From sequence record PX915677.1: a stretch of DNA of 64,000 bases; one strand, 5' to 3'. The first letter of the stretch is position 1. Every line of letters starts with the position of its first letter. Below are positions 14,075-38,266 of this stretch, in pieces. The notes under the pieces are model-generated. The model searched no databases. It was given only the letters and a program-made list of their open reading frames with translations, and had not been told where the DNA came from. The position numbers and the translations under genes were made by a program. This DNA is from a phage.

Positions 14075-14115
14075 TCGACAAATTAAATTATTAATAGTAT
14101 AGGAGCTAACATAAC

Positions 14116-15174
14116 ATGGCTAATCCAACTTTATTTGTATCGTATGACCAGAATGGTAAAAAACTTTCTTTTGCTAACTGGATTTCTGTTCTGTCCCCTC
14201 AGGATACCCCGTTCGTATCTATGACCGGTAAAGAGTCTATCAACCAGACTATCTTTAGCTGGCAGACCGATGCACTGGCAAGCGTTGACGGTAATAACGC
14301 ACACGTCGAAGGCTCTCGTGCTGAAGACGGCGAAATGAAACCGACTGTTATCAAATCTAACGTTACTCAGATTCTGCGTAAGGTTGTTCGTGTTTCTGAT
14401 ACTGCTAACACCACCGCTAACTACGGTCGTGGTCGTGAACTGATGTATCAGCTGGAGAAGAAAGGTAAAGAGATCAAGCGTGACCTCGAGAAAATCCTTC
14501 TGTCCGGTCAGGCTCGTACCGACGTTCTGGCTGACCAGTACCTGACTAACTCTGCAACTGATCCTGCTGTTGTTGGTCTGAATGACACCCATGCAGCTCG
14601 TAAGACTGGTGCATTCCAGTTCCTGTGTGCTCACGGTGGTCTGGCTGGTGGCGTTGTTGACAAGACCAAGAATGGTCCTGCTGACCCGGATACTGGTGCA
14701 GTAACTGTTAAAGTTGCACAGAATGCTTCTAACCCGACCACTAACATTGGTTTTGATGAAGCTGATATCTTTGATATGACCCTGCAACTGTATACCGCTG
14801 GTTCTGAAGCAGATATCATCATGATTAACCCAGCTCATGCTAAGATCTTCGCTGGTCTGCAAGAAAATACTCAGGGTTCACGTAAGCGTATCTTTGAGAA
14901 CACCAAGCAGTTCATCTACGAAGTTAACAGCATCACTGACCCGCTGGGCCAGAGCTACAAAATCATCGTTAACCGTTGGATGCCTACCGATGCAGTTTAC
15001 TTCTTCCGTAGCGCTGACTGGACTCAGATGGTTCTGCGTGCTCCGAAACGTACTGAACTGGCTAAAGACGGTTCTTACGAGAAGTGGATGATTGAAATGG
15101 AAGTTGGTCTGCGTCACCGCAACCCGTATGCTTCCGGCGTTCTGTTCACTGCTGCGGGAAAGGTGGCGGCGTAA
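14116..15174 (+). CDS. Major capsid protein (352 aa), short isoform
   Basis: Position after portal and scaffold; strong RBS; followed by frameshift site and Ig-like domain ORF. Confidence 0.75.
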   Translation: MANPTLFVSYDQNGKKLSFANWISVLSPQDTPFVSMTGKESINQTIFSWQTDALASVDGNNAHVEGSRAEDGEMKPTVIKSNVTQILRKVVRVSDTANTTANYGRGRELMYQLEKKGKEIKRDLEKILLSGQARTDVLADQYLTNSATDPAVVGLNDTHAARKTGAFQFLCAHGGLAGGVVDKTKNGPADPDTGAVTVKVAQNASNPTTNIGFDEADIFDMTLQLYTAGSEADIIMINPAHAKIFAGLQENTQGSRKRIFENTKQFIYEVNSITDPLGQSYKIIVNRWMPTDAVYFFRSADWTQMVLRAPKRTELAKDGSYEKWMIEMEVGLRHRNPYASGVLFTAAGKVAA

Positions 15175-15698
15175 CAGTAGACAGTGTGACTGTTAGCCCT
15201 GCGTCTTTAGCAAGTCTAGAGACAGGGGCTACTCGGCAGTTCACTGCAAGCGCGGAGAAAAGTGATGGTTCTACCGAAACAACTGGCTTTACTTGGTCAG
15301 TGACAGGAGGTGGTTCTATCACTCAGTCGGGTTTGTATACTGCTCCGAGTGCGTCTCAATCCACTGATGTATCCATTACTGCAACTTTAGAAGGTGTTTC
15401 TGGTACAGCAACCATTTCTGAAATTGTTGCTCCTGCTCCTACTATTGTGAGTCGTGGGCCAATTACAGGTAAAGTAGGTGGTACTACCACTAACTTCAAC
15501 ACCATGTTTACTGTAACTAATTCTATTGCTGATGATTACACACTTGTTGTAACTCCCGCAGAAGCTGGTACAATAAGCGCTAATAATTCGTTAAAATTAG
15601 ATGCTGCTGCAAGTGGCGAAGTTACTGTTCAAGCTAGTTTGACAGCTGACCCGTCCATCAATGCAACATGCACTTTTACTGGTGTAACACCTGCTTAA
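14116..15698 (+). CDS. Major capsid protein long isoform: predicted -1 frameshift at G GGA AAG (15156-15162) fusing an Ig-like (Big_2-type) domain
   Basis: Slippery heptamer in capsid frame 4 codons before stop; -1 frame open 15096-15698 with no ATG; junction ...TAAGK/GGGVTVDSVTVSPASLASLETGATRQFTA. Confidence 0.55.
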
Positions 15699-15705
15699 AA
15701 TTAGA

Positions 15706-15729
15706 CCCTGCCTTCGGGCGGGGTTTTTT
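15706..15729 (+). terminator. Intrinsic terminator
   Basis: CCCTGCC(ttcg)GGCGGGG then TTTTTT. Confidence 0.7.
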
Positions 15730-15757
15730 CGTTTTAAGACCTATACAAGCTAGTGTG

Positions 15758-15766
15758 TAATGTATA
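15758..15766 (+). promoter_or_regulatory. TAATGTATA promoter motif (phage sigma factor-type, by recollection of phiEco32 literature)
   Basis: Exact 9-mer 34 nt upstream of start codon at 15800, just after a terminator. Confidence 0.45.
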
Positions 15767-15799
15767 TTCTTTGTCTACATATAACAAGGAGGACAACCT

Positions 15800-16312
15800 A
15801 TGGCAATGCCAGATTTCAGAGGGGCTTTTACATATAACCCAAATACAGGGCATCTTTTCTGGTCTATGAGTAACGTATTCAATAAACAGAAAGGGAAACG
15901 TGCTGGATGTATTAATAATAAAGGATATCGTGTATTAACCTTCAAGAAGAAATCATACCTAGAGCATAAGGTCATAGCTGAACTCTTTCTTCCTAAAGTA
16001 GAAGGGAAGGATTATGTCAACCATAAGAATGGAATAAAAGACGATAACAGGATTGAGAATCTAGAGTGGTGTACTCAACAAGAAAACTGTACACATGCTT
16101 TTGAAACAGGCCTCTCAACACCTAGGAGTCTTGAGGATAACCCTAATTCCAAACTCACTAAAGAGCAAGTTCTCTTTTGTTTGGAGAACTACAAACCGAG
16201 AGATAGAGAGTTTGGAGCTAGAGCCTTAGCTAGAAAGTTTGGGGTCTCTAAAAGCACAATATCTCTCATTACTAAAGGCGTAAACTGGAAGGAGGTTTAT
16301 TATGATGCCTGA
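15800..16312 (+). CDS. HNH homing endonuclease (170 aa)
   Basis: HNH motif region VNHKNGIKDDNRIENLEWCTQQENCTH; inserted between capsid and downstream virion genes. Confidence 0.7.
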   Translation: MAMPDFRGAFTYNPNTGHLFWSMSNVFNKQKGKRAGCINNKGYRVLTFKKKSYLEHKVIAELFLPKVEGKDYVNHKNGIKDDNRIENLEWCTQQENCTHAFETGLSTPRSLEDNPNSKLTKEQVLFCLENYKPRDREFGARALARKFGVSKSTISLITKGVNWKEVYYDA

Positions 16313-26200: not shown

Positions 26201-26251
26201 GCTGCTATCAATGGTTTAACGATAGAGTTTGCTGTTGGCGGGCGGAGATAA
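23234..26251 (+). CDS. Large virion/tail protein with multiple bacterial Ig-like (Big_2-type) domains (1005 aa)
   Basis: Several segments of the form VTxSxxxxTLxxGxTxxLTATxxPANA. Confidence 0.65.
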   Translation: MALYPIKSLGAVGVIADQAPTDLAPNAFTNAINARFVEQRVFKTGGNAPLSYVDEDKDLTPLSFVSMPFDYYSAGNSFLVVGTNKKLYKLTDESLTDISRKVATVTKKASASIKIYPVVSQIVPKESTISMNFNQTKNLEVSLLPADANNTDLIWEVSNSSYGSITVDPSDSKLATLTSFEKEGNLVVTISTANESVVAQIAVNIIDGDSGIFLSQDTVTIRKGGTTTLTAVTGKTPVTWSSNNASIVSVTPNANSLTAVITANGEGNVTITADNGTKTASCEIVSIPQIDSISLSQSDVTVSRGSQYILTATLSPANAPNQNITWTSSNPNIATVSGTSTQGTINALLAGFTEITATTEEGNRVAVCTVRVDLAGRTMRTSAMAFAAPVSESVETQEEEVVTPPESEETVYFAEPTSGIDTSGMYEGNNFYDYSNVNDIEGFARASLLATPLSSVTLDIVSASLDVGEEIVITATASPEGEYSYQWSVDKTGYVSTTSVTGKSIKLVALRKGEINVTCTVSQMTQKDYDAFDDYPWYHAVISNCAVATTHYETPQVKEFESEYFVDLPGWGEQTVVDNDGNPSVKKFNWKCERVRSFNNRLFALNMREANASGVTTNYPLRLRWSNFANENKAPTLWDDFAYDRVVSSDLASNIVGQTQALENGYAGYIDLADSNGSLIDILPLKDYLFVYTEFETYIGSPTNNTYQPLMFKKLFNDSGILAPECVVEVEGSHFVVTQNDVILHNGATKKSIASNRVKNMLINEVCLVNPLATRVHLHQDKKEVWVLYVGPGEPKESFACTKAAVWNYEFDTWSFRTIPYAQCIGLVDPPVLERGPIWSDFQEITWDDPSIKELVWRKDATNFRQRVTIVGSFLKGFYQVDVGALDYFYDRLNDVVIEKPLEMRLERTGIDFDNVTNEWNQKHINRFRPQTTGSGTYIFEAGGSQFSNEYGHPHTSKTYTIGVDRHVSVRLNHPYLFYNVIDNDVNSNAAINGLTIEFAVGGRR

Positions 26252-26257
26252 CAACAA

Positions 26258-26277
26258 GGGGCTTCGTGCCCCTTTTA
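26258..26277 (+). terminator. Intrinsic terminator
   Basis: GGGGC(ttcgt)GCCCC then TTTTATTG. Confidence 0.55.
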
Positions 26278-26294
26278 TTGTTTTGGAGGAACTT

Positions 26295-27263
26295 ATGGGT
26301 GCAGGTGGTTTTCGTAAGAACACTGGTCGCAACAACACCACACTCCCGTACAACGTTGGGTTTCTCAATAATGTACAGGACACAGAAACATATAACGTAG
26401 CCGTATATGATGAGCTACAAAAAGTCAGTACAGCTACTAACCAAATGTTCCAAGCTATTGATGAGATTCACGATGAGATTGATGTTCGTATCAAAGCTCT
26501 CCATGCGATGAACTTACAATTTGATGAGCTTGAGAATAGAATTACTACAGAGATAGAGACAGCTATTGCCGATATCCAAACACAGATGGGGAATCTCTCC
26601 ACTGAAGATATTTGGGATAATTCTGTTCAACCTCCTGTGAAATTAGAAAGCACTGTATCTGGTTTTAAAACAAGTATTGAAGGTAACACAACCAAGATTC
26701 AAACGGTAGAAGGTATTGTCAACGATCAAGGTCAAGAGATTGCTTTTGTTCAGACAGAGATTCAAAATATTAATGGAAGCCTATCTCAGTATATGAAGCT
26801 CTCTGAGTATGAAGCTACGTGGGGTGTTAACTCTACAGTCAACGGAAGATATGCTGGGGTCAAGTTAACTAACAACGGAACAAACAGCCAATTCCAAGTA
26901 ACAGCTAACAAATTTATTGTTGGTGATGGCAACTCTGGTAATACTCCCTTCGTGTTTGAAGGTGGGCGAGCTAGGATGGAATTCGCTGATATAAAGAACG
27001 TCAATATCACAACAGCTCAGATTGCTAACGCTAGAATCCAATGGGCACAGATTGATAACGTATCCATCTCCAACGCCCAGATTCAGAACTTATCAGCGGA
27101 TAAAATCACTGCTGGTTCTATGTGGGGTTCTAACTGGAGACTAACTGTTGGTGGTGACTTTGTTATGGGTGGTACAGGTGGGGCGCAGTTGTGGATGAAT
27201 GGTAACAGAATCGACTTCTACGATGGAAGTGGTGCTCTGAGAATTAGAATAGGGAGTTGGTAA
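26295..27263 (+). CDS. Tail fibre-like protein (about 322 aa; start moved to ATG 26295 with GGAGGAA RBS)
   Basis: ORF-track start 26229 overlaps upstream gene and terminator hairpin; internal ATG has strong RBS. Confidence 0.55.
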   Translation: MGAGGFRKNTGRNNTTLPYNVGFLNNVQDTETYNVAVYDELQKVSTATNQMFQAIDEIHDEIDVRIKALHAMNLQFDELENRITTEIETAIADIQTQMGNLSTEDIWDNSVQPPVKLESTVSGFKTSIEGNTTKIQTVEGIVNDQGQEIAFVQTEIQNINGSLSQYMKLSEYEATWGVNSTVNGRYAGVKLTNNGTNSQFQVTANKFIVGDGNSGNTPFVFEGGRARMEFADIKNVNITTAQIANARIQWAQIDNVSISNAQIQNLSADKITAGSMWGSNWRLTVGGDFVMGGTGGAQLWMNGNRIDFYDGSGALRIRIGSW

Positions 27264-27264
27264 T

Positions 27265-28284
27265 ATGGCATATGGAATATGGTGTCAACCTGTAGGTCCG
27301 GGGCCAGCTGCCCCTGCCCCTCTTTTTATTGACAGTAATCTAACATTTCCACAATACCTAGGGGCATACAGCATATCCCCTTCGTGGAGTGCTAGAAACG
27401 CTTCATTTAATGTCGGCTCTTTTGATGGTCAAGGAGAGTTATTAATTGTCCCAACTAGTAGACTTATTCAAGACTATTACGTAGGGACGGATTTAATGCC
27501 TAGTTTTAGCTATGTAACAGGTATAGGGACTTCTGGACAAACAGTAAATATTAACATAGAGCCTGCTGGAGCTAGCGGTAATAACAATAGAAGCTTCCCA
27601 ATGTCTTTCCAAGCATATAAACTATGGCCTAGAGGTAATAGAAGTTATGGAATAACTTTCTCCAACTCAGCAGATTTCTTCTCTATCTCTGATAGTGGGG
27701 TTGTTGGTCAATGTGTTTGGGCGTACAGAGGGGCTGTAGGAGATGGTTTTACTGTTCCTAATGCTGGTCCTAACGCTCTTGTGTTTGCTAATTGGAATCA
27801 GGGTGGGGTGTGTGCTTCTTACAATGCAAGCAATGGTCAAATGATCATAACCCACAACAGATCAAACCAGTCCGGAAGTAACAGGGGTGCAGTAATAAAT
27901 GATATGAGGATCGCTGTTTTTGCCAGTGGAGTGGGTGTGCCAGAACATAATGGGGGTTTGAATATTTATTCTCCCGGAACTACTGCTTGCGTATTCTCTA
28001 CTTACAGGACTCCTTTTGCTATTAGCAGGTTCTTCCCATCTAGTGGGGGTGATACAGGTCTAGGTATTCCTATGATGTGTATGAACGTTACCAATGGAGC
28101 TATAACAGCGCAAGGGGGTGGGTGGATGTGGGTTCATGAAAGATCCCATACAATGAGTGGTACATCGGTAGGAACAGGATTTGGACCACTTGTGGCTAAC
28201 TGGACTGATCAATACCCAATCAATGTTAACATAAACCTAGGATTCAATTACCCAATGTTGGAAGGTTCTTTAATTTATGCATAA
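27265..28284 (+). CDS. Hypothetical tail protein (339 aa)
   Basis: ORF track; structural module. Confidence 0.55.
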   Translation: MAYGIWCQPVGPGPAAPAPLFIDSNLTFPQYLGAYSISPSWSARNASFNVGSFDGQGELLIVPTSRLIQDYYVGTDLMPSFSYVTGIGTSGQTVNINIEPAGASGNNNRSFPMSFQAYKLWPRGNRSYGITFSNSADFFSISDSGVVGQCVWAYRGAVGDGFTVPNAGPNALVFANWNQGGVCASYNASNGQMIITHNRSNQSGSNRGAVINDMRIAVFASGVGVPEHNGGLNIYSPGTTACVFSTYRTPFAISRFFPSSGGDTGLGIPMMCMNVTNGAITAQGGGWMWVHERSHTMSGTSVGTGFGPLVANWTDQYPINVNINLGFNYPMLEGSLIYA

Positions 28285-28293
28285 GGAGATATT

Positions 28294-29076
28294 ATGGCAA
28301 TCAGAATGGGTATCGAAGAACTAGACCCAATGGTTCAACAGGCTTCAAAGAAGTATGGGATTCCTGCTGCTTTAATTCATGCTGTCATCCAAAGAGAGTC
28401 CAGTGGTCGTCCTACAGTGGCCTCTGGAACTGGTCCTGTAGGTTTAATGCAGATCAGTAAAGGGTTGGCTAAAGATTACGGTTACAAACTAGAAGATAGA
28501 CTTGACCCAGCAAAGAATATTGATATGGGCGCTCGTTACATAAGAGATAACTTAAAAGCTTTTAATGGTGATGTTAAGAAAGCAATGGTTGGTTATTCAG
28601 AAGGTATCGGTGGAGCTAAGCAAATGTTCGCTGGTAAAAAGGGGTTTACTCCACAAGCTCTTGACTCCATGAACAATAAACACTTTCTTCCTTTCTATGG
28701 TGATGCAGCCTCTCAGATTGCTAACCCTGTTGGAGCTTTGCAAGCTGTTCAACCAGTCAATCAGTTTAGTCCTGACTTGTTAGATAGAGAGAAGGCCGCA
28801 CAAGCTCCAACTCAGGCAGAGATTGCTGCTTCTAAGACAGGTGCTTTAGGTGGAAATCCAGTAGAGTTTTACTCTGATGAAGTGCAGGAAGGCGAAAATC
28901 AGAAACCTCAACAGAACTTTGGTAATGCAGTATTAGGGGTAGCTGCTATGCTTGCTGGTAAACCTCCCACTTCTCAAACAGTTCAGAGGGCAAGTGCACC
29001 ACATGCAGCAGGTTCTCAGTACAGTCCACAAACACAAGCAGTGCTCAGACGTCTGGCTAGCATTGGTGTAAAGTAA
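28294..29076 (+). CDS. Virion-associated lytic transglycosylase (SLT domain)
   Basis: QRESSGRPTVASGTGPVGLMQI matches SLT catalytic region (ES...GLMQ). Confidence 0.75.
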   Translation: MAIRMGIEELDPMVQQASKKYGIPAALIHAVIQRESSGRPTVASGTGPVGLMQISKGLAKDYGYKLEDRLDPAKNIDMGARYIRDNLKAFNGDVKKAMVGYSEGIGGAKQMFAGKKGFTPQALDSMNNKHFLPFYGDAASQIANPVGALQAVQPVNQFSPDLLDREKAAQAPTQAEIAASKTGALGGNPVEFYSDEVQEGENQKPQQNFGNAVLGVAAMLAGKPPTSQTVQRASAPHAAGSQYSPQTQAVLRRLASIGVK

Positions 29077-29095
29077 TAATCTTTAAGGAGGACTT

Positions 29096-30148
29096 ATGTC
29101 TTTATTTGGAAAATCAGCTTCTAGCAAAACCACAGTGGCCCCTTCCTCTCAGGTTGATGCCCTGCTGAAGCAGATTGTTGCTAATGCTCAGAATATGCAG
29201 AACAACGATCCGGGATTCATCTCCCAACAACTGGCTGGGTTTAATGGCAACCAACAGGGTGCTCTGAACAACTTAGCAGCTTCTACTACTCAGAAGAAAC
29301 TAGCTGATATGTATACACCACGTACACAGCAAGGGTTGGACCAATTAAACTCTCTTGCACAGCAGTATCAGAATATTGTCAATGGTGGTGGTCTAACTGC
29401 TGATGGTGTTAATAACTTCAGTAAAGGACTAAACAGCTCAGCTCTTGCTCAAGCGACTAGTAAGGCAGCTTCCAATGTATCTCTCGGAAATGGTTCTGAT
29501 TCAGGTTCTCTCCGTAGAGCTGCTGCTCAAGGTGCTGCTCTGAACAGTGCTAATACAAACTTAGCTCGTACTATCAGTGGCAAGAATATGGGAATCAGTG
29601 CTCTTCAACAAGACCAAAACTTCCAGAGGGGGTTACTTGGTGCTCAGTCAGGATTGGCTGGACAGAATCTCAATCTTGGTGCTCAAGGTGTTCAGGCAAC
29701 TCAACAAGCTATCCAGAATCAACTCATGGCTGGTAATCTACAACAGCAACAAGCCCAAGCTCAAGCTGATATTAATTGGCAGAACGCTATTGGCTCTCAA
29801 CAGTATGGGTGGAATCAGCTTAACAACCAACTTAATGTATTAAATAGTGTAAGCCCAATGGCTGGGTACACGATTAAGAATGCTGCTCCGGGGGTTAATA
29901 CTGGACAACAGCTCCTAGGTGCTGGTATCACTGGATTAGGTATTGCAGGTCGTATGGGTGCTTTCTCTCCTAATCAACAGACTCAGAATGCTTGGAGTTC
30001 CTATAACAACTCAGGTGGGCAATCTGGAATGGCTGGTCCTATGATTGGTGGTTCTAATCTTTCTCAACAGAAAGGTCAGTCTAACTGGTTATCCACAGCA
30101 GGTAGTAATATCTTAGGTGGTGTCTTAGGGGCATTTGGAGCAAACTAA
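29096..30148 (+). CDS. Gln/Asn/Gly-rich low-complexity internal virion protein (350 aa)
   Basis: ORF track; Gly-rich hydrophobic C-terminus; paralogous to next gene. Confidence 0.55.
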   Translation: MSLFGKSASSKTTVAPSSQVDALLKQIVANAQNMQNNDPGFISQQLAGFNGNQQGALNNLAASTTQKKLADMYTPRTQQGLDQLNSLAQQYQNIVNGGGLTADGVNNFSKGLNSSALAQATSKAASNVSLGNGSDSGSLRRAAAQGAALNSANTNLARTISGKNMGISALQQDQNFQRGLLGAQSGLAGQNLNLGAQGVQATQQAIQNQLMAGNLQQQQAQAQADINWQNAIGSQQYGWNQLNNQLNVLNSVSPMAGYTIKNAAPGVNTGQQLLGAGITGLGIAGRMGAFSPNQQTQNAWSSYNNSGGQSGMAGPMIGGSNLSQQKGQSNWLSTAGSNILGGVLGAFGAN

Positions 30149-30160
30149 AGGAGATTTGAT

Positions 30161-31129
30161 ATGGGACTTTTCGGAGGCGGGGGTAGTAAAACTACTTCCC
30201 AAATGATTCGCCCTGAATACATTCAACAGTATATTGACCAGCTTAACCAACAGATTGGTAATACTAGTTCAGGGGATTATGTTTATCGTGACAGTGTAGG
30301 GTTTAATAACAATCAGACAGAGGCACTTAACAACCTAGCACAATCTGGCGCTCTAGGTACTCTCTCACAGCAGTATATGGATGCAGCAGGTCAAGGCTTG
30401 GGTTATCTAGATAATGCCTATAAAGGTTATCAGAGCCTCTCTGGACAAGGTGGGATTACTGGAGAGCAGATTGGTGCTCTCGCTGGTCAACTGTATGATG
30501 ATGACGCTGTGCAAGCAGCCATTACAGCTAATAATGAACAGGTTCAACAGAACTTGGCACGTAATGCTCTTCCTCAGTTGGCTCAACAGTTTGCCGGTCA
30601 ACAAGGTTCAGGTGCTCGTATGGCTAAGTCTTTTGCCCAAGGTGATGCTCTGAATCAGATGCAAGGGCAAGCAACAGATATTACCAATAGTGCATATAAC
30701 TCGGCTATCAGCCAAGCTGAAAGCATCCTCTCTGGTAATAGACAGAATCAGGCAGCTGCTCTCTCTGGTCTTTCTAATATTGGTTCTAACCTTTCTAACC
30801 TAGGTCAGCAGGGTGCTAATTTGTCTCAACAGCAAATAATGAATCAATGGAATGCAGGGTTGCAGCAACAACAGCAACAACAGAATGAATATGATAATGC
30901 CTACCAGAATGCTCAGAACGCAGCTAATTGGGGATGGCAAGATATCAATAACCAACTCGGTGCAGCAGGTGTACTTAACGGTGCTCTCGGACAAACTACA
31001 ACTACTAAAACATCTGGTGGCAAAGGTGGTTTCCTTGGTGGAGCTATGAGTGGTGCAGCAGCTGGCTCTTCCTTTGGACCTTGGGGTGCATTAGCTGGGG
31101 GTGTAATCGGTGGGTTGGCTAGTACTTAA
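30161..31129 (+). CDS. Gln/Asn/Gly-rich low-complexity internal virion protein, paralogue (322 aa)
   Basis: Shared N-terminal motif (FNxNQxxALNNLAxS) and glycine-zipper-like C-terminus with 29096..30148. Confidence 0.55.
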   Translation: MGLFGGGGSKTTSQMIRPEYIQQYIDQLNQQIGNTSSGDYVYRDSVGFNNNQTEALNNLAQSGALGTLSQQYMDAAGQGLGYLDNAYKGYQSLSGQGGITGEQIGALAGQLYDDDAVQAAITANNEQVQQNLARNALPQLAQQFAGQQGSGARMAKSFAQGDALNQMQGQATDITNSAYNSAISQAESILSGNRQNQAAALSGLSNIGSNLSNLGQQGANLSQQQIMNQWNAGLQQQQQQQNEYDNAYQNAQNAANWGWQDINNQLGAAGVLNGALGQTTTTKTSGGKGGFLGGAMSGAAAGSSFGPWGALAGGVIGGLAST

Positions 31130-31142
31130 TTAGGAGATAAAT

Positions 31143-32792
31143 ATGCAACAGACAACTTACGCTCAGGTCAGAAGTCGTGACCCGAGAAATACTTTCTATG
31201 GTGTTAATCCGGGAGCGGCTTCGGCCTCTCCTTATATGGCTAGACCAACTCAGACAGCAGATATTTCTATGTATCAACGTCCTGCTATACCTGCTGGGCT
31301 TTCCTCTCTTGTAGGTCAAACTTCAGTAGATTATCAGAATATGTTGAATCCTGTTCAGAGTAATGGTCTTCCTTCTGATATCCCAAATGATGTACAACCT
31401 CAAGCACAACAGGCTGTAACTCTTCCTGAGTTTGAGAATCAAGAAACCATGCAAACTGCTGGACTTTCCCCTTCTTCTATTCCTCCAGAATCAGAACCTC
31501 TTCCGGTAACACCTCCTACTAAACCGTTAGAAGCTGGTCCTATGGAGTTTACTCCTTCTCAGGTGGAACAGGCACAAGGTGTGATTAATACTCTTGCTCA
31601 AGGACAAGACGCTGGTGATGGAATGACTGCTGCTACTCGTGCTAAAGATCAGGAACGTGTTAACAACGATATCTTGCAAGTTGCGAAAGCTAAAGACCCT
31701 TCGGAAGCTTGGAACAAACTACAGAAAGAACCATTCTATCAGAACTCTAGTTTCTACACAGGTTTGATGGGTGTAGGTCTTTCCATTATGTCAGGTAAGT
31801 CTCCTATTGAAGCTTTCCAGATTGGTCAGGGAATGGCTAATCAAGATGAGACTAAGAAGCAACTGGAAGCTAACCGTGATGCTCTGATTGAACAAGGCTT
31901 CTCTCAAGACTCGATCGCAGCTGCTATTGCTAACGGAGATCCATCTCTACTGAAGATGAGAGCTGTAGACCCTGCTCAGAAAGAAGCGCTGTATGCTGCT
32001 CGTGAAGAACGACAAAATGCTGAATGGGATAGACGTCAACAGATTCAAGAGCAAACTATGCGTGAGCGTGCTGATGAAACTCGTCGTGCCGCTGAAGAAA
32101 GGGCTAACATGAACTTTGAACGTCAGAAAGAGTTGATTGGTTATCGTGATAAGGTTAAGGCTGAACGTGCTGAACAAGCTGCTCAGAGTTTTAACTTTAA
32201 CCCGAAAGAAGTTCGTCTTGCTCAGAATACAGCTGAAGGTACGGTTGCTAAGCAGTGGGCAGAGAAAGGTGGCCTGTTTAACCAGTCTAACAAAGACTTG
32301 GATTTGGCTGATAAGGCTGTTAAGGATAAAGACTATCAGACAGCTCGTTCTGCTTACATGCAGGCTATCATGAACTCCGCAAGGGCTGAAATCGGTGCTA
32401 CTCGTTCTCTTACCGAAGAAGACTTGGGGCACTTTGCAGAAGACCCATCAATCTTCGTTCGTGTTGGCAACAAGTTTGCACTGAAATCTGGATGGCGTCC
32501 TACTGATTCTGCTCTTGCTTATGCTCGTAAGCAAGCTAACGTTGGTCACACCTCTGCAATGAAAGGTGTTGCTGATGCTAAGAGAGCTACGATTGAAGCT
32601 TACATCGGTTCTGGTATGGATAAGAAGAGAGCTACTGCATTGGTTAACCGTGCAATCCCTTCTGGTGGTTTCTATGACCCTCTAGGTGTTTTCTCTGAAC
32701 AAGCAGAAGAAGCAGTTGGTGGTGCAGCAACCAATCCTAAGCTTAATGGTGCTTTATCAGCTGTCGAAGACACTAGCTGGTTTACTCAATAA
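31143..32792 (+). CDS. Hypothetical internal virion protein (549 aa)
   Basis: ORF track; strong RBS. Confidence 0.55.
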   Translation: MQQTTYAQVRSRDPRNTFYGVNPGAASASPYMARPTQTADISMYQRPAIPAGLSSLVGQTSVDYQNMLNPVQSNGLPSDIPNDVQPQAQQAVTLPEFENQETMQTAGLSPSSIPPESEPLPVTPPTKPLEAGPMEFTPSQVEQAQGVINTLAQGQDAGDGMTAATRAKDQERVNNDILQVAKAKDPSEAWNKLQKEPFYQNSSFYTGLMGVGLSIMSGKSPIEAFQIGQGMANQDETKKQLEANRDALIEQGFSQDSIAAAIANGDPSLLKMRAVDPAQKEALYAAREERQNAEWDRRQQIQEQTMRERADETRRAAEERANMNFERQKELIGYRDKVKAERAEQAAQSFNFNPKEVRLAQNTAEGTVAKQWAEKGGLFNQSNKDLDLADKAVKDKDYQTARSAYMQAIMNSARAEIGATRSLTEEDLGHFAEDPSIFVRVGNKFALKSGWRPTDSALAYARKQANVGHTSAMKGVADAKRATIEAYIGSGMDKKRATALVNRAIPSGGFYDPLGVFSEQAEEAVGGAATNPKLNGALSAVEDTSWFTQ

Positions 32793-32812
32793 GACCTAAG
32801 TCCTGCCTTCTA

Positions 32813-32821
32813 TAATGTATA
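32813..32821 (+). promoter_or_regulatory. TAATGTATA promoter motif
   Basis: Exact 9-mer 39 nt upstream of ATG 32860. Confidence 0.45.
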
Positions 32822-32859
32822 TAGGGGGTAGGACATTTTTATTTATAAAAGGAGACGTT

Positions 32860-35800
32860 ATGGCTAACATTAAACCGTGGGAAGAAGCTTCCAAAGCTCC
32901 TGCGTATCTGAATGCCTCTCCGGAGCAACAAGCTCAAATGAGAGAACAATATAAGGCAGCAGGTGGCTCTATTCCTGAGGAACAACCAGTAGCACAACCA
33001 CAACAAGAAGAACGTGGTGCTATAGGTGAGTTTGCTCAAGGTGTGTCAAATGCTCTTCAATCTGGTGGTGCAAATATTGCAGCTAGTGCTGCTAAAGGTA
33101 TTGGTGGTTTAGTTGAGATTGGTGAGAATCTAGCTGGAGCACAAACTAGTTATGGTAAGCGTATCCAAGAGAACTCTCAGAACCTTCTGAAAGAACGTAT
33201 GGATAAGATTGAGGATGGGATTGGTAAAACTGTCGGTCAGTATGCTGGCGTTGCTGGTGATATCGGTTTGACAGTTGCTAACCCATTGGCTGCTGCTGCT
33301 ATCATCGCAGGTCGTGAGACAGGTCGTGCATATGCAGACCAAACCCCTGAAGAGGGAGAGGATAAGTCTATTCTAGATGCAGCCTTAGTTGGTGGTGCTA
33401 ACTATGCAGCTCAGAGAATCCTTCCGGGTGCTGTTGGTACAGCTGAGTCCACACTTGGACGTATTGGTCAGAACGTTGCTAGTAACGCAGTGGCTGGTGC
33501 TAAAGGTGGTGCTCTTGTGGGTGCTGCTGAAGTTCAGAACAAGTATGGCGACGACAACGATCTAGCTAAGACATTGGAAGGTGTTATCGAAGAAGGGGCT
33601 ATGGGTGCTGCATTTGGTGGCGCAGTTGGTGGGGTTCATGGTTTGATTAGCCGTCCAGATTCTGCTGTCTTCAAGAACACTCCAGAGTATGCGAAGACTG
33701 ATATTGCTGCTGATGATGAACTGATTCGTAGTGCTAAGAATATTGATGAACTGAAAGAAGCTTATTCTAAAGCTGAAACTGCTAATGCTGCTTCTGCTCT
33801 GAACCTTCTGGATGAGAATGGATTCCGTATTACAGATGCTGTTGCTGTAGACTCCCCTGCTGCTCAGCGTATTCTTAATACTGACCAAGCTCGTGCTGAG
33901 AAAGCTGCTTCCGTTCAGAAAGAACATTCCAACATTCCGGGCCTCAACCCTTTAGCTTCTCCTGCTAAGACTCGTGGTAAAGCATTCGCTGACAACGAGC
34001 ACAACCAGAAGCAGGCTGTTGCTATGAAGGATGCAATGGCTGATTACACCAAAGACAATACGAAAGCTCTTACAGATGTTCTAGATAACCTAGACCGTGA
34101 ATTAACTTCTCTCCGAGCTTCTGGTGATTTTACTGGTAGTCCGATTGATATTAAGAACCGTACACAAGCCGACCGTGATTTCATTGATGCTTACAAGACT
34201 TTCTACAATGAAGCAAATCGATTCAAAGCTCGTGATGGTGAAGACTTTAATAACTTTGTAGAGAAAGCTGCTGAACTACAGAAGATGGCTGATAATGTTT
34301 CTCCAGAGATGAAGAAAGCTATCGGTGGGTTGAAGAAACTGAAAGGTATGCCTGAAGGTTTTAATCCTATCCAAGATGCTTACACTCTGAACAATACAGC
34401 TAAGTTCATGAGCAATCAAGACCGTGGTTGGACTTCCCTGACTGATGATGGATTCCGTGAGGCTTCTTCACCTAGTCTGGTAATGAACACTCTCGGTGCT
34501 GCTAAGTATGCTCTGAATCGCTTCTCTTCTCAGCGTGCTCGCTCTCAACGTGTTAAGCAACAAGAATCTAACAGTGAAGCTATCCGCTCTCTAGCTCGCG
34601 GTGATTTGGAAGTTGCTCGTGCTAAGTCTACTGCTGATGAAGCTCGTGCTAAAATGGAAGAAGAACCAGTTGTTGATGACATTAAATTTAAGACGCAAAA
34701 TGACGTGGAAACCGAACCGGTTCGGGAGTCTTCTTCTAGTACTGTGACGGAAGAAAATCTTCCTTCTTCTGCTCCTCAAGAAGCCCCTCTTACAGCTCGT
34801 GATTTAGTTGCGCAAAGACGTGCTATCCGTCAGGCTGAACAGCGTCGCGCTGAAGAAGAGGCATTGGCTGCTCAAGAAGCTCCGGTCGAACAAGCTCCAC
34901 AGGCTGAACCTCTCCCTGCTCGTAACCCTTTAGAGGAACGTCGTGCAATGGAACAGCAACGTGCTCAAGAAGAGGCCGCACAGGCTCCAGAACCAACCGT
35001 AGAGGAACCAACAGTCAAAGCTGAGCCATTACCTGCCCGTGCTCCTAAAGCTCCTAAGGAAGCTGTACAGGACGTTAAACCGGCAAGTGGTGTAGAACGT
35101 TTAGCTGCTATGTCTAGTGCTGCTCGTCAGGCTACTAAAGATCGTGCAGAACGTTTTGCTCGTTCTCTGTACTCTAAGGCTGCTAAAGCTAAAGCTACTG
35201 CTGAAAACTTCTTGGCCTATAAAGGTGATCCTAAGGAACTGATGCGTCGTATTCGTCAGGAAGATAATGCTATCAACACTGAACGTCATGAAGAAATGGC
35301 TCGTAACCAGCTGGCCTCTCAGCAAGGTATTGCTACTGCTAAGAACAACACTGTACGAACTAATTTTGCTGAATGGGTTAAAGAACGTGGTCTGCCAGAA
35401 GACATTGCTACTAAGGCATTACGTGCTGAAGAGAAAGGTTTAGGTGGGAACGTAACTAACTTGGATAGTCTGAAACGTCGTGCTGAAAGGTTGTATCAGA
35501 AGCAGCGTGAGGATGAGTTTGATAGGCTGTACCAACAGGCTCTAGAAGAGAACAAAGCTTTCGATAATAAGAATGCTCCTAAACTGGTTGACCAGAAGAA
35601 AGAGCTTCAGTCTGAGATTGATGCTTTGATTGATTCAGAACCTTTACGTCCTGCTCAGAAAGATGCTATGCGTAAGCTGATGAATGACTTTGTAGATGGG
35701 AAGTTTAAATCTTCAGAGAAGGCTGGTAGGGAAGAGGCTTTGGAAGTTGGTCAGATGAAGGATATTTGGGATGGGTTTATTAACACCTATAACAGAGAAG

Positions 35801-37281
35801 TGAATGCCTTCAACAAAGCTAACAAGAACTCTCAGTACGAAGCTGCTGCTAAGCATTTACAGGCTCGTGAAGAACGTCTTGCTACACTCAGGAAAAAGGC
35901 TCAGGCTCGTTCGGATGCTAAAGCTGCTGTTGAGAATGAACGTAAAACTCTAGAGGCTATTGCAGCTCAGAAGAGTGAGATTGAGAAGATGATGGAAGGT
36001 TTACCTAAACCTGTTCGTGAGGCTCAGGAATCTCGTACATTGAAACAGTTGGCTGCTCACCACGATAAGAACTCTCCAGTTCCTCCAGAGAAGTTCCGTA
36101 GTTACATTGAACGTATCCATAACGCCGAGTCAGACTACCTTGATCGTCAGCGTCGTTTAACTGATGCAGAGGAAGATGCTCGTCAGGCTAAGTGGAACAA
36201 GATGTATGAGCAAGCGGAAGAGATGAACCGTAAGTTTGATGTGGACAAGAGAGTTAAGCGCAGTGAAGAGCTTAAAGCGGCCCAAGAGCGTGAGAATGAC
36301 CTTATGGCAGTACAACGTCAACGTGATGACATTCATCGCCGCCTGATGCGTACTATGGAAGATAAGGGCATATCTAGAGAGGATGCTGAAGCATTTGCTG
36401 GTTCCTATATGGATAACCGTTATGCACTTCTTGAGAAGCCTATGACTCCTACTGAACATCAGAATGCTCGTTCTCGTATCGAAGCTGATGTTGAGAAGTT
36501 TGCTAAGAAGTACGAATCAATGACTCCTATCGAGAAAGAGATTGTTAAGGTTACTGGAGATACTGAAGGTAAGCTTGATAACTTGGATGCGGATACTAGG
36601 AAGGCTATTGAGGAGGCTCAGAAGGTTGACTCTGATATTAAGAAACTGCAAGAGGAAGAGTTGGAGATGGAGAAGATTCGTTCTGCTCTGCCTGATGATG
36701 AAAGATCTCAAGCAAATTCTGATATCTTGGAAAGCATTAAACAACAGGAAGAGGTCTTTGCTGATAAAGTAGAGAAAGCTTTCTTGAGTGGGAAGAGCTT
36801 GGATGAGTTGGCTAGTGTGGCTGAAGTTTTAGACAGGGTTCATGGTGCAGATAAGGCTGGTAACAACCGTCGCTTTGTACGTGCATTGCAGACTGCTGCT
36901 AAAAACAAGAAGAAGTATGGTGATAATCCAGTAGCTTGGTTTAGTGCTGATGATTACTCTGCCATTGCTAAACTTGGTGCTTCTTCCGCAGGTGGTAACA
37001 AATCCAGAGCACTGGAGAAGATCTTTGGTTCTACAGCTGAACAGGCTAAGAGTAAGTTGCTTGGTAGGGATGATGTAGCGAAGATGAGACGTGTGATTGA
37101 AGAGAACCCTGATATCAAGATTCCTTCTTACAAGACAACAAATCGTACTGAGTACTTGCAGTTCTTGGAGAAGTTTAATGACGAAGGGAAGCCTAAGATT
37201 AAACGTGGCTCATTGTCAGAGAAGCTTGAACGCAGTAAGCGTCAATCGAGACTCCGTGTAAGAGTTCGACCTAAGGAGTGA
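32860..37281 (+). CDS. Very large coiled-coil-rich virion protein (about 1470 aa), likely internal/ejection protein
   Basis: Start moved to ATG 32860 (AAAGGAGA RBS); internal AEPLPAR repeats; long Ala/Glu/Lys/Arg-rich helical regions. Confidence 0.6.
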   Translation: MANIKPWEEASKAPAYLNASPEQQAQMREQYKAAGGSIPEEQPVAQPQQEERGAIGEFAQGVSNALQSGGANIAASAAKGIGGLVEIGENLAGAQTSYGKRIQENSQNLLKERMDKIEDGIGKTVGQYAGVAGDIGLTVANPLAAAAIIAGRETGRAYADQTPEEGEDKSILDAALVGGANYAAQRILPGAVGTAESTLGRIGQNVASNAVAGAKGGALVGAAEVQNKYGDDNDLAKTLEGVIEEGAMGAAFGGAVGGVHGLISRPDSAVFKNTPEYAKTDIAADDELIRSAKNIDELKEAYSKAETANAASALNLLDENGFRITDAVAVDSPAAQRILNTDQARAEKAASVQKEHSNIPGLNPLASPAKTRGKAFADNEHNQKQAVAMKDAMADYTKDNTKALTDVLDNLDRELTSLRASGDFTGSPIDIKNRTQADRDFIDAYKTFYNEANRFKARDGEDFNNFVEKAAELQKMADNVSPEMKKAIGGLKKLKGMPEGFNPIQDAYTLNNTAKFMSNQDRGWTSLTDDGFREASSPSLVMNTLGAAKYALNRFSSQRARSQRVKQQESNSEAIRSLARGDLEVARAKSTADEARAKMEEEPVVDDIKFKTQNDVETEPVRESSSSTVTEENLPSSAPQEAPLTARDLVAQRRAIRQAEQRRAEEEALAAQEAPVEQAPQAEPLPARNPLEERRAMEQQRAQEEAAQAPEPTVEEPTVKAEPLPARAPKAPKEAVQDVKPASGVERLAAMSSAARQATKDRAERFARSLYSKAAKAKATAENFLAYKGDPKELMRRIRQEDNAINTERHEEMARNQLASQQGIATAKNNTVRTNFAEWVKERGLPEDIATKALRAEEKGLGGNVTNLDSLKRRAERLYQKQREDEFDRLYQQALEENKAFDNKNAPKLVDQKKELQSEIDALIDSEPLRPAQKDAMRKLMNDFVDGKFKSSEKAGREEALEVGQMKDIWDGFINTYNREVNAFNKANKNSQYEAAAKHLQAREERLATLRKKAQARSDAKAAVENERKTLEAIAAQKSEIEKMMEGLPKPVREAQESRTLKQLAAHHDKNSPVPPEKFRSYIERIHNAESDYLDRQRRLTDAEEDARQAKWNKMYEQAEEMNRKFDVDKRVKRSEELKAAQERENDLMAVQRQRDDIHRRLMRTMEDKGISREDAEAFAGSYMDNRYALLEKPMTPTEHQNARSRIEADVEKFAKKYESMTPIEKEIVKVTGDTEGKLDNLDADTRKAIEEAQKVDSDIKKLQEEELEMEKIRSALPDDERSQANSDILESIKQQEEVFADKVEKAFLSGKSLDELASVAEVLDRVHGADKAGNNRRFVRALQTAAKNKKKYGDNPVAWFSADDYSAIAKLGASSAGGNKSRALEKIFGSTAEQAKSKLLGRDDVAKMRRVIEENPDIKIPSYKTTNRTEYLQFLEKFNDEGKPKIKRGSLSEKLERSKRQSRLRVRVRPKE

Positions 37282-37644: not shown

Positions 37645-37872
37645 CTAGATTAAATCGTAATACTGAATAATGTCAGAGAGTTTGAACTCTCGAATCTCAT
37701 CTTTCTCTACATCTATCGCTGTCATAATCCAACAAGGTTTGCCACCGTTATGAAAACGGGAGCTAGCAACGGAGGTTCGGAGTGGAATAACGGACCGGTC
37801 AGCAACCTCGCCTCTCCAATTGCGATAGCGAAAGCGAAGCACTTGTTGCGTAGATTTTTGATCATCACTCAT
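37645..37872 (-). CDS. Hypothetical small protein (75 aa; start moved to internal Met)
   Basis: ORF track 37645..38007 trimmed to MSDDQK start to remove long overlap with HNH gene. Confidence 0.4.
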   Translation of the reverse strand: MSDDQKSTQQVLRFRYRNWRGEVADRSVIPLRTSVASSRFHNGGKPCWIMTAIDVEKDEIREFKLSDIIQYYDLI

Positions 37873-38266
37873 TTCCTTTTTTGAATTGTTTTCTTGCATC
37901 ATTCTCTTCTTTTGTTTTAATCTTATGACAAGGGTCTTTACACAGAACTTGAAATCCCTCTTTCTCACACAGAGCACGAGAGATGATTTCATCCCAAGTT
38001 GCTTCATGATCTAAGGGAACTATAGGTTCTATGTGGTCAATAGCCATATCCTTTACAGGGTGGTCAGAACCACACATGGCACACTTAAAGTGCATTGCCA
38101 ATCTACCTGTCTTTGGATTAATCTTCTGCTCTGTCTTGGCGTCTGCTAGTGCATCGAACATGGGCTTCCACTTTCTAGTCAGAGAACGAATCCCTGACTT
38201 GATGAAAGAGTTATAACGAGCTTCAGTCCACATTCCACTACAGCGTATCTTCTCAGACTTCGCCAT
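37865..38266 (-). CDS. HNH endonuclease (133 aa)
   Basis: HFKCAMCG...AIDHIEPI zinc-finger HNH pattern. Confidence 0.65.
   Translation of the reverse strand: MAKSEKIRCSGMWTEARYNSFIKSGIRSLTRKWKPMFDALADAKTEQKINPKTGRLAMHFKCAMCGSDHPVKDMAIDHIEPIVPLDHEATWDEIISRALCEKEGFQVLCKDPCHKIKTKEENDARKQFKKGNE

What the first reader, a model, noticed from the sequence alone, without database searches (positions are those of the whole stretch)
29096..31129. Paralogous Gln/Asn-rich low-complexity virion proteins with glycine-zipper C-termini
Seen: two adjacent genes encode 350- and 322-aa proteins dominated by Q, N, G, A, S, sharing an N-terminal motif and ending in Gly-rich hydrophobic segments (for example GGKGGFLGGAMSGAAAGSSFGPWGALAGGVIGGLAST). 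They follow the transglycosylase and precede large internal proteins, so a role in the ejection channel is plausible.
Basis: partly seen in the sequence, partly recalled or inferred. Interest (0 to 1): 0.4.

Follow-up and report, generated by a model that had tools for sequence, protein, structure and literature searches.

The report
Duplicated phage DNA-ejection proteins (Kuravirus gp21/gp22)
These two neighbouring genes are near-identical copies of the gp21 and gp22 proteins of the coliphages SU10 and phiEco32, which are already known to be carried in the phage head and expelled at infection; they most likely build the part of the DNA-delivery channel that enters the bacterial outer membrane.

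Summary
ORFs 29096-30148 (A, 350 aa) and 30161-31129 (B, 322 aa) are real paralogues. About 62% of their residues are Q, N, G, A or S, against a window median of 31%. Charged residues make up 7-9%, and there is no Cys or His.

The window is a Kuravirus (phiEco32/SU10-like podophage). A and B are 97-99.7% identical to SU10 gp21/gp22 and phiEco32 gp23/gp24. Published mass spectrometry places these proteins in the virion and shows that they are lost from genome-release intermediates.

What I add:
- Both belong to a wide family, PHROG 4287, with 729 cluster representatives.
- Related phages (GAP52, 7-11-like, Privateer) carry a single copy that continues into a self-cleaving Peptidase_S74-like domain. 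B ends exactly where that cleavage would fall.
- Only B has a true i/i+4 glycine zipper.
- B's tail matches, in an order-specific way, the C-terminal hairpin of P22 gp7, which in situ cryo-EM places in the outer membrane.
- LUZ24 gp53, inferred to be the ortholog of Pa223 gp56 (a predicted outer-membrane channel), is a remote homologue.
- The two paralogues keep opposite net charge: the A family averages +4.7 and the B family -6.8.

The membrane target and any A-B hetero-oligomer are inferred, not shown.

The parts
29096..30148 (+). Paralogue A (350 aa). Ortholog of SU10 gp21 and phiEco32 gp23. Basic (net charge +8, no Glu), Q/N-rich, predicted all-alpha.
   Evidence: ORF and SD site. phrog_4287 E 3.5e-117. 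99.7% identity to phiEco32 and 96.9% to SU10. AF2 monomer model is all-helical but low confidence, pLDDT 41.5. Charge.
30161..31129 (+). Paralogue B (322 aa). Ortholog of SU10 gp22 and phiEco32 gp24, annotated 'putative DNA injection protein'. Acidic (net charge -8). Closer than A to the single-copy homologues of related phages.
   Evidence: ORF and SD site. phrog_4287 E 9.5e-109. 99.7% identity to SU10 gp22. The B-family HMM hits GAP52 at E 1e-33, against 6e-26 for the A-family HMM. AF2 pLDDT 37.7, all-helical.
31016..31126 (+). B residues 286-322: glycine-zipper helix, a Gly-Pro-Trp-Gly turn, then a second zipper helix. This is the proposed outer-membrane hairpin and the most conserved stretch of the B family.
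   Evidence: Gly i/i+4 periodicity, p = 0.001. Near-invariant Gly columns. hhalign against the P22 gp7 tail (residues 193-228) scores 44-47, probability 85-93%; 40 column-permuted tails scored at most 23.5 and the reversed alignment 24.6.
29909..29965 (+). A residues 272-290 (QLLGAGITGLGIAGRMGAF): conserved Gly-rich hydrophobic segment. It falls opposite B's zipper in the full-length alignment but is not i+4 periodic.
   Evidence: Conservation. Kyte-Doolittle maximum 1.16. No periodicity. Taken alone, its similarity to the B or gp7 tails is not above permuted controls.
30086..30145 (+). A residues 331-350 (WLSTAGSNILGGVLGAFGAN): second short Gly-rich hydrophobic end segment, after a Q/N/G-rich linker of about 40 aa that B lacks.
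28294..29076 (+). Upstream cassette member: SLT lytic transglycosylase (SU10 gp20 ortholog by position), the peptidoglycan-cutting ejection protein.
   Evidence: PF01464 E 1.2e-23, phrog_12507 E 3e-176. Role stated in PMC9509320.
31143..32792 (+). Downstream cassette member: 549-aa internal protein (SU10 gp23 ortholog by position). Candidate periplasmic-tunnel subunit by size and position only.
   Evidence: phrog_12130. In virion and ejected in SU10. No detectable similarity to LUZ24 gp51 or to any PDB chain.
32815..37281 (+). Downstream cassette member: large internal protein (SU10 gp24 ortholog, 1473 aa). The real start is probably the ATG at 32860.
   Evidence: phrog_14629 aligns from residue 16. 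No SD before 32815. A stem-loop at 32800-32834 covers that ATG. SU10 lists 1473 residues.

Best explanation
A and B are the two small internal 'ejection' (pilot) proteins of a Kuravirus.

Shown for 97-99.7% identical orthologs in SU10: they are made from the late structural operon, packaged inside the head, and expelled when the tail opens, together with the SLT transglycosylase and the two large internal proteins.

Inferred:
- They leave through the narrow portal-tail channel largely unfolded. This fits proteins that are Cys- and His-free, poor in charge, rich in Q/N/S/G/A, and helical only in context.
- Outside the head they re-assemble into an alpha-helical oligomeric tube that prolongs the SU10-type nozzle to and through the outer membrane.
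- B keeps the ancestral C-terminal anchor: two short glycine-zipper helices joined by a G-P-W-G turn. This is the counterpart of the V-shaped two-helix C-terminus of P22 gp7, which sits in the outer membrane in situ.
- A is a lineage-specific duplicate with a remodelled C-terminus and the opposite net charge. It probably co-assembles with B or stacks on it, rather than acting alone.
- The SLT protein then cuts the peptidoglycan, and the 549-aa and roughly 1470-aa proteins complete the path to the cytoplasm.
For: Identity with SU10 gp21/gp22 and phiEco32 gp23/gp24. Virion MS and loss on genome release in SU10, and MS-verified virion status of the Privateer homologue.

Both proteins are in phrog_4287 'DNA ejection protein'.

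The five-gene order SLT, A, B, ~500 aa, ~1100-1500 aa is conserved even at 44% identity, next to SU10-type capsid and portal genes. Fused metagenomic relatives join this module to a cell-wall hydrolase, next to SU10-type adaptor genes.

Remote homology to LUZ24 gp53: hhalign probability 95%, E 3e-8; hit to phrog_4287 at E 2e-10; HMM E 3e-4. The Pa223 counterpart, gp56, is MS-verified in virions and predicted to be the outer-membrane channel.

B's tail matches the P22 gp7 tail in an order-specific way. In situ cryo-EM places that gp7 region as two membrane-embedded helices per subunit.

The natural C-termini of B, P0138, P0151 and LUZ24 gp53 coincide with the predicted S74 self-cleavage point of the single-copy homologues. 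A Gly-zipper C-terminal end is therefore the conserved mature form.

Opposite net charge is conserved across 26 A-family and 25 B-family members.
Against: No experiment localises gp21 or gp22 after ejection. In SU10 they were not resolved in any map.

Hydrophobicity of the Gly segments is modest: the best 19-residue Kyte-Doolittle mean is 0.94-1.16, below the usual 1.6 threshold for transmembrane helices.

No Pfam glycine-zipper family and not PF25688 (P22 gp7) reaches threshold. HMMER does not detect gp7 similarity above shuffled controls, so full-length homology to gp7 is unproven and the tail match could be convergent.

T7 gp14 shows no similarity.

AF2 monomer models are unreliable (pLDDT 38-42), and I could not model oligomers.

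A lacks the zipper periodicity.
Confidence: 0.6

Rival explanations
1. They are ejected proteins, but they act at the cytoplasmic membrane or as part of the periplasmic tunnel. For example, the Gly-rich ends could anchor the channel in the inner membrane, while another protein or the tail needle breaches the outer membrane.
For: Glycine-zipper helices insert into many kinds of membrane (my own background knowledge of these motifs, not checked here). SU10 already has a 28-nm nozzle and a needle that reach the outer membrane. The roles of the 549-aa and 1488-aa proteins are unassigned, and they show no similarity to the LUZ24 counterparts.
Against: The genes precede the larger internal proteins, which is where the gp14/gp7-type genes sit in other podophages. 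B's tail matches the gp7 region that is embedded in the outer membrane. The Bruynoghevirus homologue is predicted to be the outer-membrane component.
Confidence: 0.2
2. They are internal head 'cargo' without a channel role. Their low-complexity Q/N-rich chains would act as a plug, a DNA-end chaperone or a space filler that is simply flushed out ahead of the DNA.
For: They are invisible in the SU10 head reconstruction. They are low-complexity, with low-confidence structure predictions. No enzymatic or known domain was found.
Against: There are strongly conserved, position-specific motifs at both ends and in the body across 729 cluster representatives. B's terminal hairpin is the most conserved part. 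Relatives are fused to a cell-wall hydrolase in tail-proximal gene clusters. The characterised analogues P22 gp7 and DEV gp73 are channel formers.
Confidence: 0.12
3. They are trimeric fibre-like external tail components. The reason to consider this is that homologues carry the Peptidase_S74 intramolecular-chaperone domain typical of tail fibres and spikes.
For: S74-like tails in the GAP52, SeKF_80, P0175 and P0164 homologues. PDB top hits for the tail profile are the GA-1 neck appendage, MYRF and a long-tail-fibre chaperone domain. Some PHROG tail-fibre families hit the S74 part.
Against: All external tail components of SU10 are assigned to other gene products in the cryo-EM maps, and gp21 and gp22 disappear on genome release. 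The window proteins lack the S74 domain entirely. The body is predicted helical, not beta-helical.
Confidence: 0.03

Closest known systems
SU10 gp21/gp22 and phiEco32 gp23/gp24 (Kuravirus ejection proteins; PHROG 4287)
   Same: Orthologs: 96.9-99.7% identical, the same lengths (350 and 322 aa), and the same position between the SLT protein and the large internal proteins.
   Different: Nothing of substance. The published work names them ejection proteins but does not describe their paralogy, charge asymmetry or C-terminal motif, and assigns them no position in the channel.
Single-copy homologues of Grimontviridae (Cronobacter GAP52 gp022, 7-11-like SeKF_80, Proteus Privateer gp018)
   Same: Same family (A3 HMM E 1e-44 and 1e-38; phrog_4287). 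Same N-terminal motif, helical body and Gly-rich segment. Privateer gp018 is MS-verified in virions.
   Different: One gene, not two. About 410 aa, because a Peptidase_S74-like self-cleaving tail of about 85 aa follows the Gly segment. The window proteins stop where that cleavage would occur.
Bruynoghevirus LUZ24 gp53, inferred ortholog of Pa223 gp56 (PHROG 7477; predicted outer-membrane channel of the ejectosome)
   Same: About 313 aa, a virion protein, first gene of the ejection cassette, and the same plan: a KTT-type N-terminal motif, a helical Q/N-rich body, then TTSSGGGGGGG followed by a Gly-zipper end. Remote homology: hhalign 95%, phrog_4287 E 2e-10.
   Different: Pairwise BLASTP is not significant. 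Single copy. The neighbouring large proteins are not detectably related. Its outer-membrane role is itself only predicted, from MemBrain and AlphaFold3. The equivalence of LUZ24 gp53 and Pa223 gp56 is inferred from genus, length and gene order, not checked by alignment.
P22 gp7 (Pfam PF25688, 'DNA transfer protein')
   Same: Head-packaged E protein, Q/N/G/A/S-rich, with a Gly-Lys-rich N-terminus. Its C-terminus GSSTPWGAAIGGGIGLLGSLF compares with B's GSSFGPWGALAGGVIGGLAST, and the match is order-specific. In situ, gp7 forms a dodecameric extracellular channel of paired inner and outer conformers, with a two-helix C-terminal hairpin in the outer membrane.
   Different: 229 aa against 322 and 350 aa. 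PF25688 does not hit A or B. HMMER sees nothing above shuffled controls. Only two short colinear hhalign segments align. Membership is therefore not established. P22 uses one protein in two conformations, where the Kuravirus has two genes.
T7 gp14 and DEV/N4 gp73 (outer-membrane pore of the DNA ejectosome)
   Same: Proposed role, and position as the small first gene of the ejection cassette.
   Different: No sequence similarity to T7 gp14 (hhalign probability 0.07%). These proteins are about 150-200 aa and have no Gly-zipper end. DEV gp73 was not compared directly; a profile search of the PDB with the family alignment found no relative.

Membership tests
PHROG 4287 / Kuravirus gp21-gp22 ejection proteins | Full-length match to the family profile | tested here: met
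   E 3.5e-117 for A (residues 1-350) and 9.5e-109 for B (residues 1-310). 97-99.7% identity to the SU10 and phiEco32 proteins.
PHROG 4287 / Kuravirus gp21-gp22 ejection proteins | Location in the late structural operon, between the SLT internal protein and the large internal proteins | tested here: met
   Gene order in the window is identical to SU10, phiEco32 and Bas91. The same order is found in a 44%-identical element.
PHROG 4287 / Kuravirus gp21-gp22 ejection proteins | Present in virions and released with the genome | not testable with these tools
   Shown by MS for the SU10 orthologs (PMC4281155; PMC9509320).
P22 gp7 family (Pfam PF25688) | Match to the family HMM | tested here: not met
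   No PF25688 hit at E <= 0.1 for A or B. It was also not among the 25 of 30 families displayed at E <= 1 for 33 family members, so a weak sub-threshold hit there is not excluded. A gp7-family HMM against 248 family members does no better than against shuffled sequences.
P22 gp7 family (Pfam PF25688) | C-terminal two-helix Gly-rich hairpin with a (S/T)-P-W-G turn | tested here: met
   For B only. hhalign scores 44-47 (probability 85-93%) against at most 23.5 for 40 permuted tails and 24.6 reversed. Tail against tail scores 28.3 against at most 17.5. A's segments do not exceed the controls.
P22 gp7 family (Pfam PF25688) | Dodecameric extracellular and outer-membrane channel after ejection | not testable with these tools
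   Needs in situ cryo-EM or cryo-ET. Monomer AF2 models are unreliable.
T7 gp14-like outer-membrane pore proteins | Sequence similarity to gp14 | tested here: not met
   hhalign probability 0.07%.
T7 gp14-like outer-membrane pore proteins | Small membrane protein encoded directly upstream of the tunnel (gp15-like) and large (gp16-like) genes | tested here: inconclusive
   Order and sizes fit (350 and 322, then 549, then about 1473 aa). However, the downstream proteins have no detectable relatives of known role.
T7 gp14-like outer-membrane pore proteins | Predicted transmembrane helices | tested here: inconclusive
   The best 19-residue Kyte-Doolittle mean is 0.94 (B) and 1.16 (A), below 1.6. 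No dedicated transmembrane predictor was available.
Bruynoghevirus gp53/gp56 (PHROG 7477) | Detectable homology and a shared domain plan | tested here: met
   hhalign 95%, E 3e-8. LUZ24 gp53 hits phrog_4287 at E 2e-10, and the intermediate members P0138 and P0151 hit both PHROGs. Colinear alignment. Pairwise BLASTP is not significant.
Pfam glycine-zipper families (PF13441, PF05433, PF13488) | HMM match above the gathering score | tested here: not met
   Only sub-threshold hits in 2-3 of 33 members: best E 0.068 for PF13441 and 0.033 for PF05433; PF13488 was not among the families listed.
Pfam glycine-zipper families (PF13441, PF05433, PF13488) | GxxxG(xxxG)n periodicity | tested here: met
   B only: a chain of six Gly plus a chain of three, p = 0.001. 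Not met for A, p = 0.73-0.88.
Peptidase_S74 (self-cleaving intramolecular chaperone) carriers | S-D-x-x-x-K ... GV(L/M)AQ ... PEAV domain after the body | tested here: not met
   Absent from A and B, which end before it. Present in relatives: P0175 at 37.9 bits, P0164 at 33.1, GAP52 at 22.1 (cut-off 22), SeKF_80 at 20.5. The tail profile's best three PDB hits are S74-type domains, but with weak E values of 0.016-0.15.

The most novel reading that the evidence does not exclude
The duplication has hard-wired into two genes what P22 achieves with two conformers of one protein (gp7-inner and gp7-outer).

On this reading the acidic B, with the ancestral zipper hairpin, and the basic A, with a remodelled C-terminus, alternate in a hetero-oligomeric ring, for example 6+6. 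This ring would form the extension of the SU10 nozzle and the outer-membrane pore. The opposite charges would drive ordered co-assembly of two otherwise sticky Q/N-rich chains only after they leave the head.

The S74 domain of single-copy relatives would be the older way of controlling oligomerisation, lost after the duplication.
Probability: 0.2. Interest if true: 0.5.

Novelty: already known. Interest (0 to 1): 0.25.

Why it matters
Ejection proteins are the least understood parts of short-tailed phages. Kuraviruses are used in phage-therapy collections and have an unusual extending nozzle.

The practical value here is annotation. These 'hypothetical' or 'DNA, RNA and nucleotide metabolism' genes can be labelled as gp7/gp14-type ejection proteins.

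The analysis also links three groups that the literature treats separately: the Kuravirus/Grimontviridae proteins, Bruynoghevirus gp56, and, at least through the membrane hairpin, P22 gp7. It gives concrete, cheap experiments: truncating B's tail, charge swaps between A and B, and co-expression.

It does not overturn anything. The role as virion ejection proteins was already published.

Tried and rejected
1. Structure route. AF2 monomer models of both proteins, built with family alignments, came out at pLDDT 37.7 and 41.5. That is too poor for fold searches, so I ran none.

2. PDB by sequence and by profile: no relatives.

3. Pfam: no family for A or B. Glycine-zipper families reach only sub-threshold scores.

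4. Equivalence of the downstream 549-aa and 1488-aa proteins with LUZ24 gp51 and gp50: no similarity, so the cassette parallel rests on order and size only.

5. Full-length homology to P22 gp7: HMMER finds nothing above shuffled controls, and hhalign gives only two short segments. I therefore claim similarity of the tail motif, not family membership.

6. A 'split hairpin' in A, with residues 272-290 and 331-349 as the two arms of the B/gp7 hairpin separated by a loop: taken alone, neither segment scores above permuted controls. Dropped.

7. T7 gp14 similarity: none.

8. DNA-level repeats as the source of the low complexity: none of note.

9. Alternative genes on the other strand or in other frames: only 61-88 aa ORFs with no support.
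Full report
**1. What is there**

The window is a Kuravirus (phiEco32/SU10-like, Gordonclarkvirinae) coliphage. Region 28000-33000 is 94-99% identical to MN03, Bas91, phiEco32-type and SU10-type genomes.

ORF A (29096-30148, 350 aa) and ORF B (30161-31129, 322 aa) lie on the + strand, 12 nt apart, each behind a Shine-Dalgarno site. Upstream is an SLT lytic transglycosylase (28294-29076; PF01464, E 1e-23). Downstream are 549-aa and 1488-aa proteins.

A and B are the most compositionally extreme of the 39 ORFs of at least 150 aa in the window:
- Q+N+G+A+S is 62.6% and 61.8%, against a median of 30.7%.
- Q+N is 26% and 25%, against 9.4%.
- D+E+K+R is 6.9% and 8.7%, against 24.8%.
- Neither has Cys or His.

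There is no DNA-repeat basis for this bias.

**2. Paralogy**

Three tests agree:
- BLASTP with composition correction: 31% identity over 275 aa, E 1e-12.
- Family profiles, 25 and 26 sequences drawn from two database searches: hhalign probability 99.9%, E 1e-32, over 286 colinear columns.
- Reciprocal hmmsearch: E 9e-32 and 5e-24.

The shared parts are an N-terminal M-[GS]-L-F-G-G...K-T-T...P motif, a long helical body, and a W-x-x-[IL]-N-N-x-L-N block followed by a Gly-rich hydrophobic segment. B ends there. A continues with a Q/N/G-rich linker of about 40 aa and a second short Gly-rich segment.

**3. The 'glycine zipper'**

In B, Gly sits at 286, 290, 294, 298, 302 and 306, then Pro307, then Gly at 309, 313 and 317. 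That gives 9 Gly-Gly i/i+4 pairs, p = 0.001 against shuffles of the same 39 residues. A's Gly segments have no such periodicity (p = 0.88 and 0.73).

Hydrophobicity is moderate: the best 19-residue Kyte-Doolittle mean is 0.94 for B and 1.16 for A. Pfam glycine-zipper families are hit only below threshold.

**4. Identity with known proteins**

A is 99.7% identical to phiEco32 gp23 and 96.9% to SU10 gp21. B is 98.8% identical to phiEco32 gp24 ('putative DNA injection protein') and 99.7% to SU10 gp22.

For SU10, shotgun MS of a concentrated (PEG-precipitated, not CsCl-purified) phage preparation detected gp20-24, with 53% coverage for gp21 and 49% for gp22 (PMC4281155). The SU10 cryo-EM study lists gp21 (350 residues) and gp22 (322 residues) as 'in virion: yes, MS: yes' (Supplementary Table 1). 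[quoted passage not shown] They were not resolved in any map, and no individual role was given beyond gp20's transglycosylase activity (PMC9509320).

**5. The wider family**

Both proteins fall in PHROG 4287 'DNA ejection protein'. An exhaustive profile search found 729 cluster representatives at E <= 1e-3, and 111 at E <= 1e-10.

Three kinds of relative are informative.

(a) Grimontviridae, the other prolate podophages (Cronobacter GAP52, the 7-11-like Salmonella phage SeKF_80, Proteus Privateer), have one copy of about 410 aa. Privateer's copy is annotated as MS-verified in virions.
- After the Gly segment, these proteins continue into a tail of about 85 aa with the S-D-x-x-x-K ... GVLAQ ... 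PEAV signature of Peptidase_S74, the self-cleaving intramolecular chaperone.
- Pfam scores are at or below the 22-bit cut-off for the phage proteins: GAP52 22.1 bits, SeKF_80 20.5, and no hit for Privateer.
- Scores are clear for two metagenomic relatives: P0175 at 37.9 bits and P0164 at 33.1.
- A profile of these tails finds the GA-1 neck-appendage chaperone domain as its best PDB match (3GUD, a chain that begins at S-D), followed by MYRF and a long-tail-fibre chaperone domain. The E values are weak, 0.016-0.15.
- In the alignment, the natural C-termini of B, of the distant members P0138 and P0151, and of LUZ24 gp53 all fall immediately before that S-D.
- I infer that the mature protein ends with the Gly-zipper throughout the family, and that Kuraviruses dispense with the cleavable domain.

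(b) Long metagenomic proteins of 700-1600 aa carry the module at their N-terminus. P0175 consists of the module, S74, a Hydrolase_2 cell-wall hydrolase and a long tail. It sits in a contig with two SU10-type adaptor genes. This ties the module functionally to envelope penetration.

(c) LUZ24 gp53 (313 aa, a 'phage particle protein') has the same plan and is a remote homologue: hhalign 95%, E 3e-8; it hits phrog_4287 at E 2e-10; intermediate sequences hit both PHROGs.
- The protein is at least 95% conserved across the P. aeruginosa phages listed in the Bruynoghevirus search.
- By length, genus and gene order it corresponds to Pa223 gp56. That equivalence is an inference; I did not align the two.
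- Pa223 gp56 is MS-verified in virions and predicted, by MemBrain and AlphaFold3 nonamer modelling, to be the outer-membrane channel of the ejectosome (bioRxiv 10.1101/2025.06.11.659172).

**6. Link to P22 gp7**

P22 gp7 (229 aa) has the same make-up and ends GSSTPWGAAIGGGIGLLGSLF, against B's GSSFGPWGALAGGVIGGLAST.

Evidence for a specific match:
- Profile-profile comparison aligns family residues 290-322 with gp7 193-228 (probability 85%; 93% for the tail alone).
- The real scores are 44-47. Forty column-permuted tails scored at most 23.5, and the reversed alignment 24.6.
- Tail against tail scores 28.3, against at most 17.5 for permuted controls.
- A second, weaker colinear segment aligns B 56-110 with gp7 49-98 (probability 61%).

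Evidence against full homology:
- PF25688 does not hit A or B.
- HMMER sees nothing above shuffled controls.

I therefore claim an order-specific shared C-terminal motif, not family membership.

The functional relevance comes from a 2026 in situ cryo-EM preprint. It reports that gp7 forms a dodecameric extracellular channel of paired inner and outer conformers, and that its V-shaped two-helix C-terminus is embedded in the outer membrane, with residues I191 to F229 listed as membrane-embedded (10.64898/2026.09.03.749273).

T7 gp14 shows no similarity to the family.

**7. Differences between the paralogues**

- B is closer than A to the single-copy homologues (HMM E 1e-33 against 6e-26), and it keeps the zipper and gp7-like tail. 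A's C-terminal segments do not exceed permuted controls.
- Net charge is opposite and conserved. The A family (26 sequences, down to about 40% identity) averages +4.7, with a range of -1 to +11. The B family (25 sequences) averages -6.8, with a range of -10 to -2.
- The charge difference lies in the N-terminal half.
- The pair, with its flanking cassette, also occurs at 44% identity in an element on a 389-kb E. coli contig.

This pattern argues for subfunctionalisation and is compatible with co-assembly, but it does not prove it.

**8. Mechanism**

Shown for orthologs: packaged in the head, and released on genome ejection.

Inferred:
- The proteins pass through the tail channel and assemble into a helical oligomeric conduit at the end of the nozzle.
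- B's hairpin inserts into the outer membrane.
- A pairs with or stacks on B.
- The SLT protein and the two large proteins complete the route.

My confidence is about 0.95 that these are ejection proteins, about 0.6 for the outer-membrane channel role as a whole, and about 0.2 for an obligate A/B hetero-oligomer.

**9. Verdict**

The new elements are the family links (Grimontviridae S74-tailed forms, Bruynoghevirus gp53/gp56, the P22 gp7 tail), the finding that only B carries a true zipper, and the conserved charge asymmetry. These are hypotheses for experiment rather than discoveries.

Noticed in passing
window 32800-32834 (+) and 32815-32860: A 15-bp stem-loop followed by a T-run lies between the 549-aa gene and the large internal-protein gene. 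It covers the first ATG of the 1488-aa ORF, which has no Shine-Dalgarno site. Profile and SU10 alignments start at residue 16, so the real start is probably the ATG at 32860 (1473 aa), and there may be an attenuator or terminator between the two genes.
   Followed up: partly
L007 (E. coli assembly GCA_023211535.1, 389-kb contig), locus 945-15875: The contig carries an SU10-type capsid gene, terminase and SU10-type portal, then SLT, an A-like 334-aa protein, a B-like 322-aa protein, and 498-aa and 1113-aa proteins, at about 44% identity to the window proteins. This would be a Kuravirus-like structural and ejection module apparently inside a chromosomal contig, either a possible temperate relative or an assembly artefact.
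   Followed up: no
L010 9834-13295 (P0175), and P0164: Metagenomic polyprotein-like relatives combine the ejection module, Peptidase_S74 and a Hydrolase_2 cell-wall hydrolase with a long C-terminal region, next to two SU10_adaptor genes. This suggests that some podophages make their ejection proteins as a self-cleaving fusion.
   Followed up: partly
L005 8974-10206 (GAP52), L006 8986-10224 (SeKF_80), L009 6980-8209 (Privateer): The single-copy homologues of Grimontviridae end in an S74-like self-cleaving chaperone domain, a domain otherwise known from tail fibres and spikes and from MYRF. Its presence on an internal ejection protein appears not to have been remarked on.
   Followed up: partly
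window 29096-31129, and alignments A1 and A2: Net charge is conserved and opposite between the paralogues: A is basic (and the window copy has no Glu at all), B is acidic. The difference is concentrated in the N-terminal half.
   Followed up: partly
window 26229-27263: The mechanical ORF list starts this tail-fibre gene at a TTG (344 aa). Orthologs in SU10, phiEco32 and Bas91 are 322 aa, and the PHROG alignment starts at residue 23, so the real start is probably the ATG at 26295.
   Followed up: no
window 37865-38266 (-): An ORF of 133 aa lies on the opposite strand immediately after the late operon. The syntenic Bas91 gene is annotated as an HNH endonuclease.
   Followed up: no
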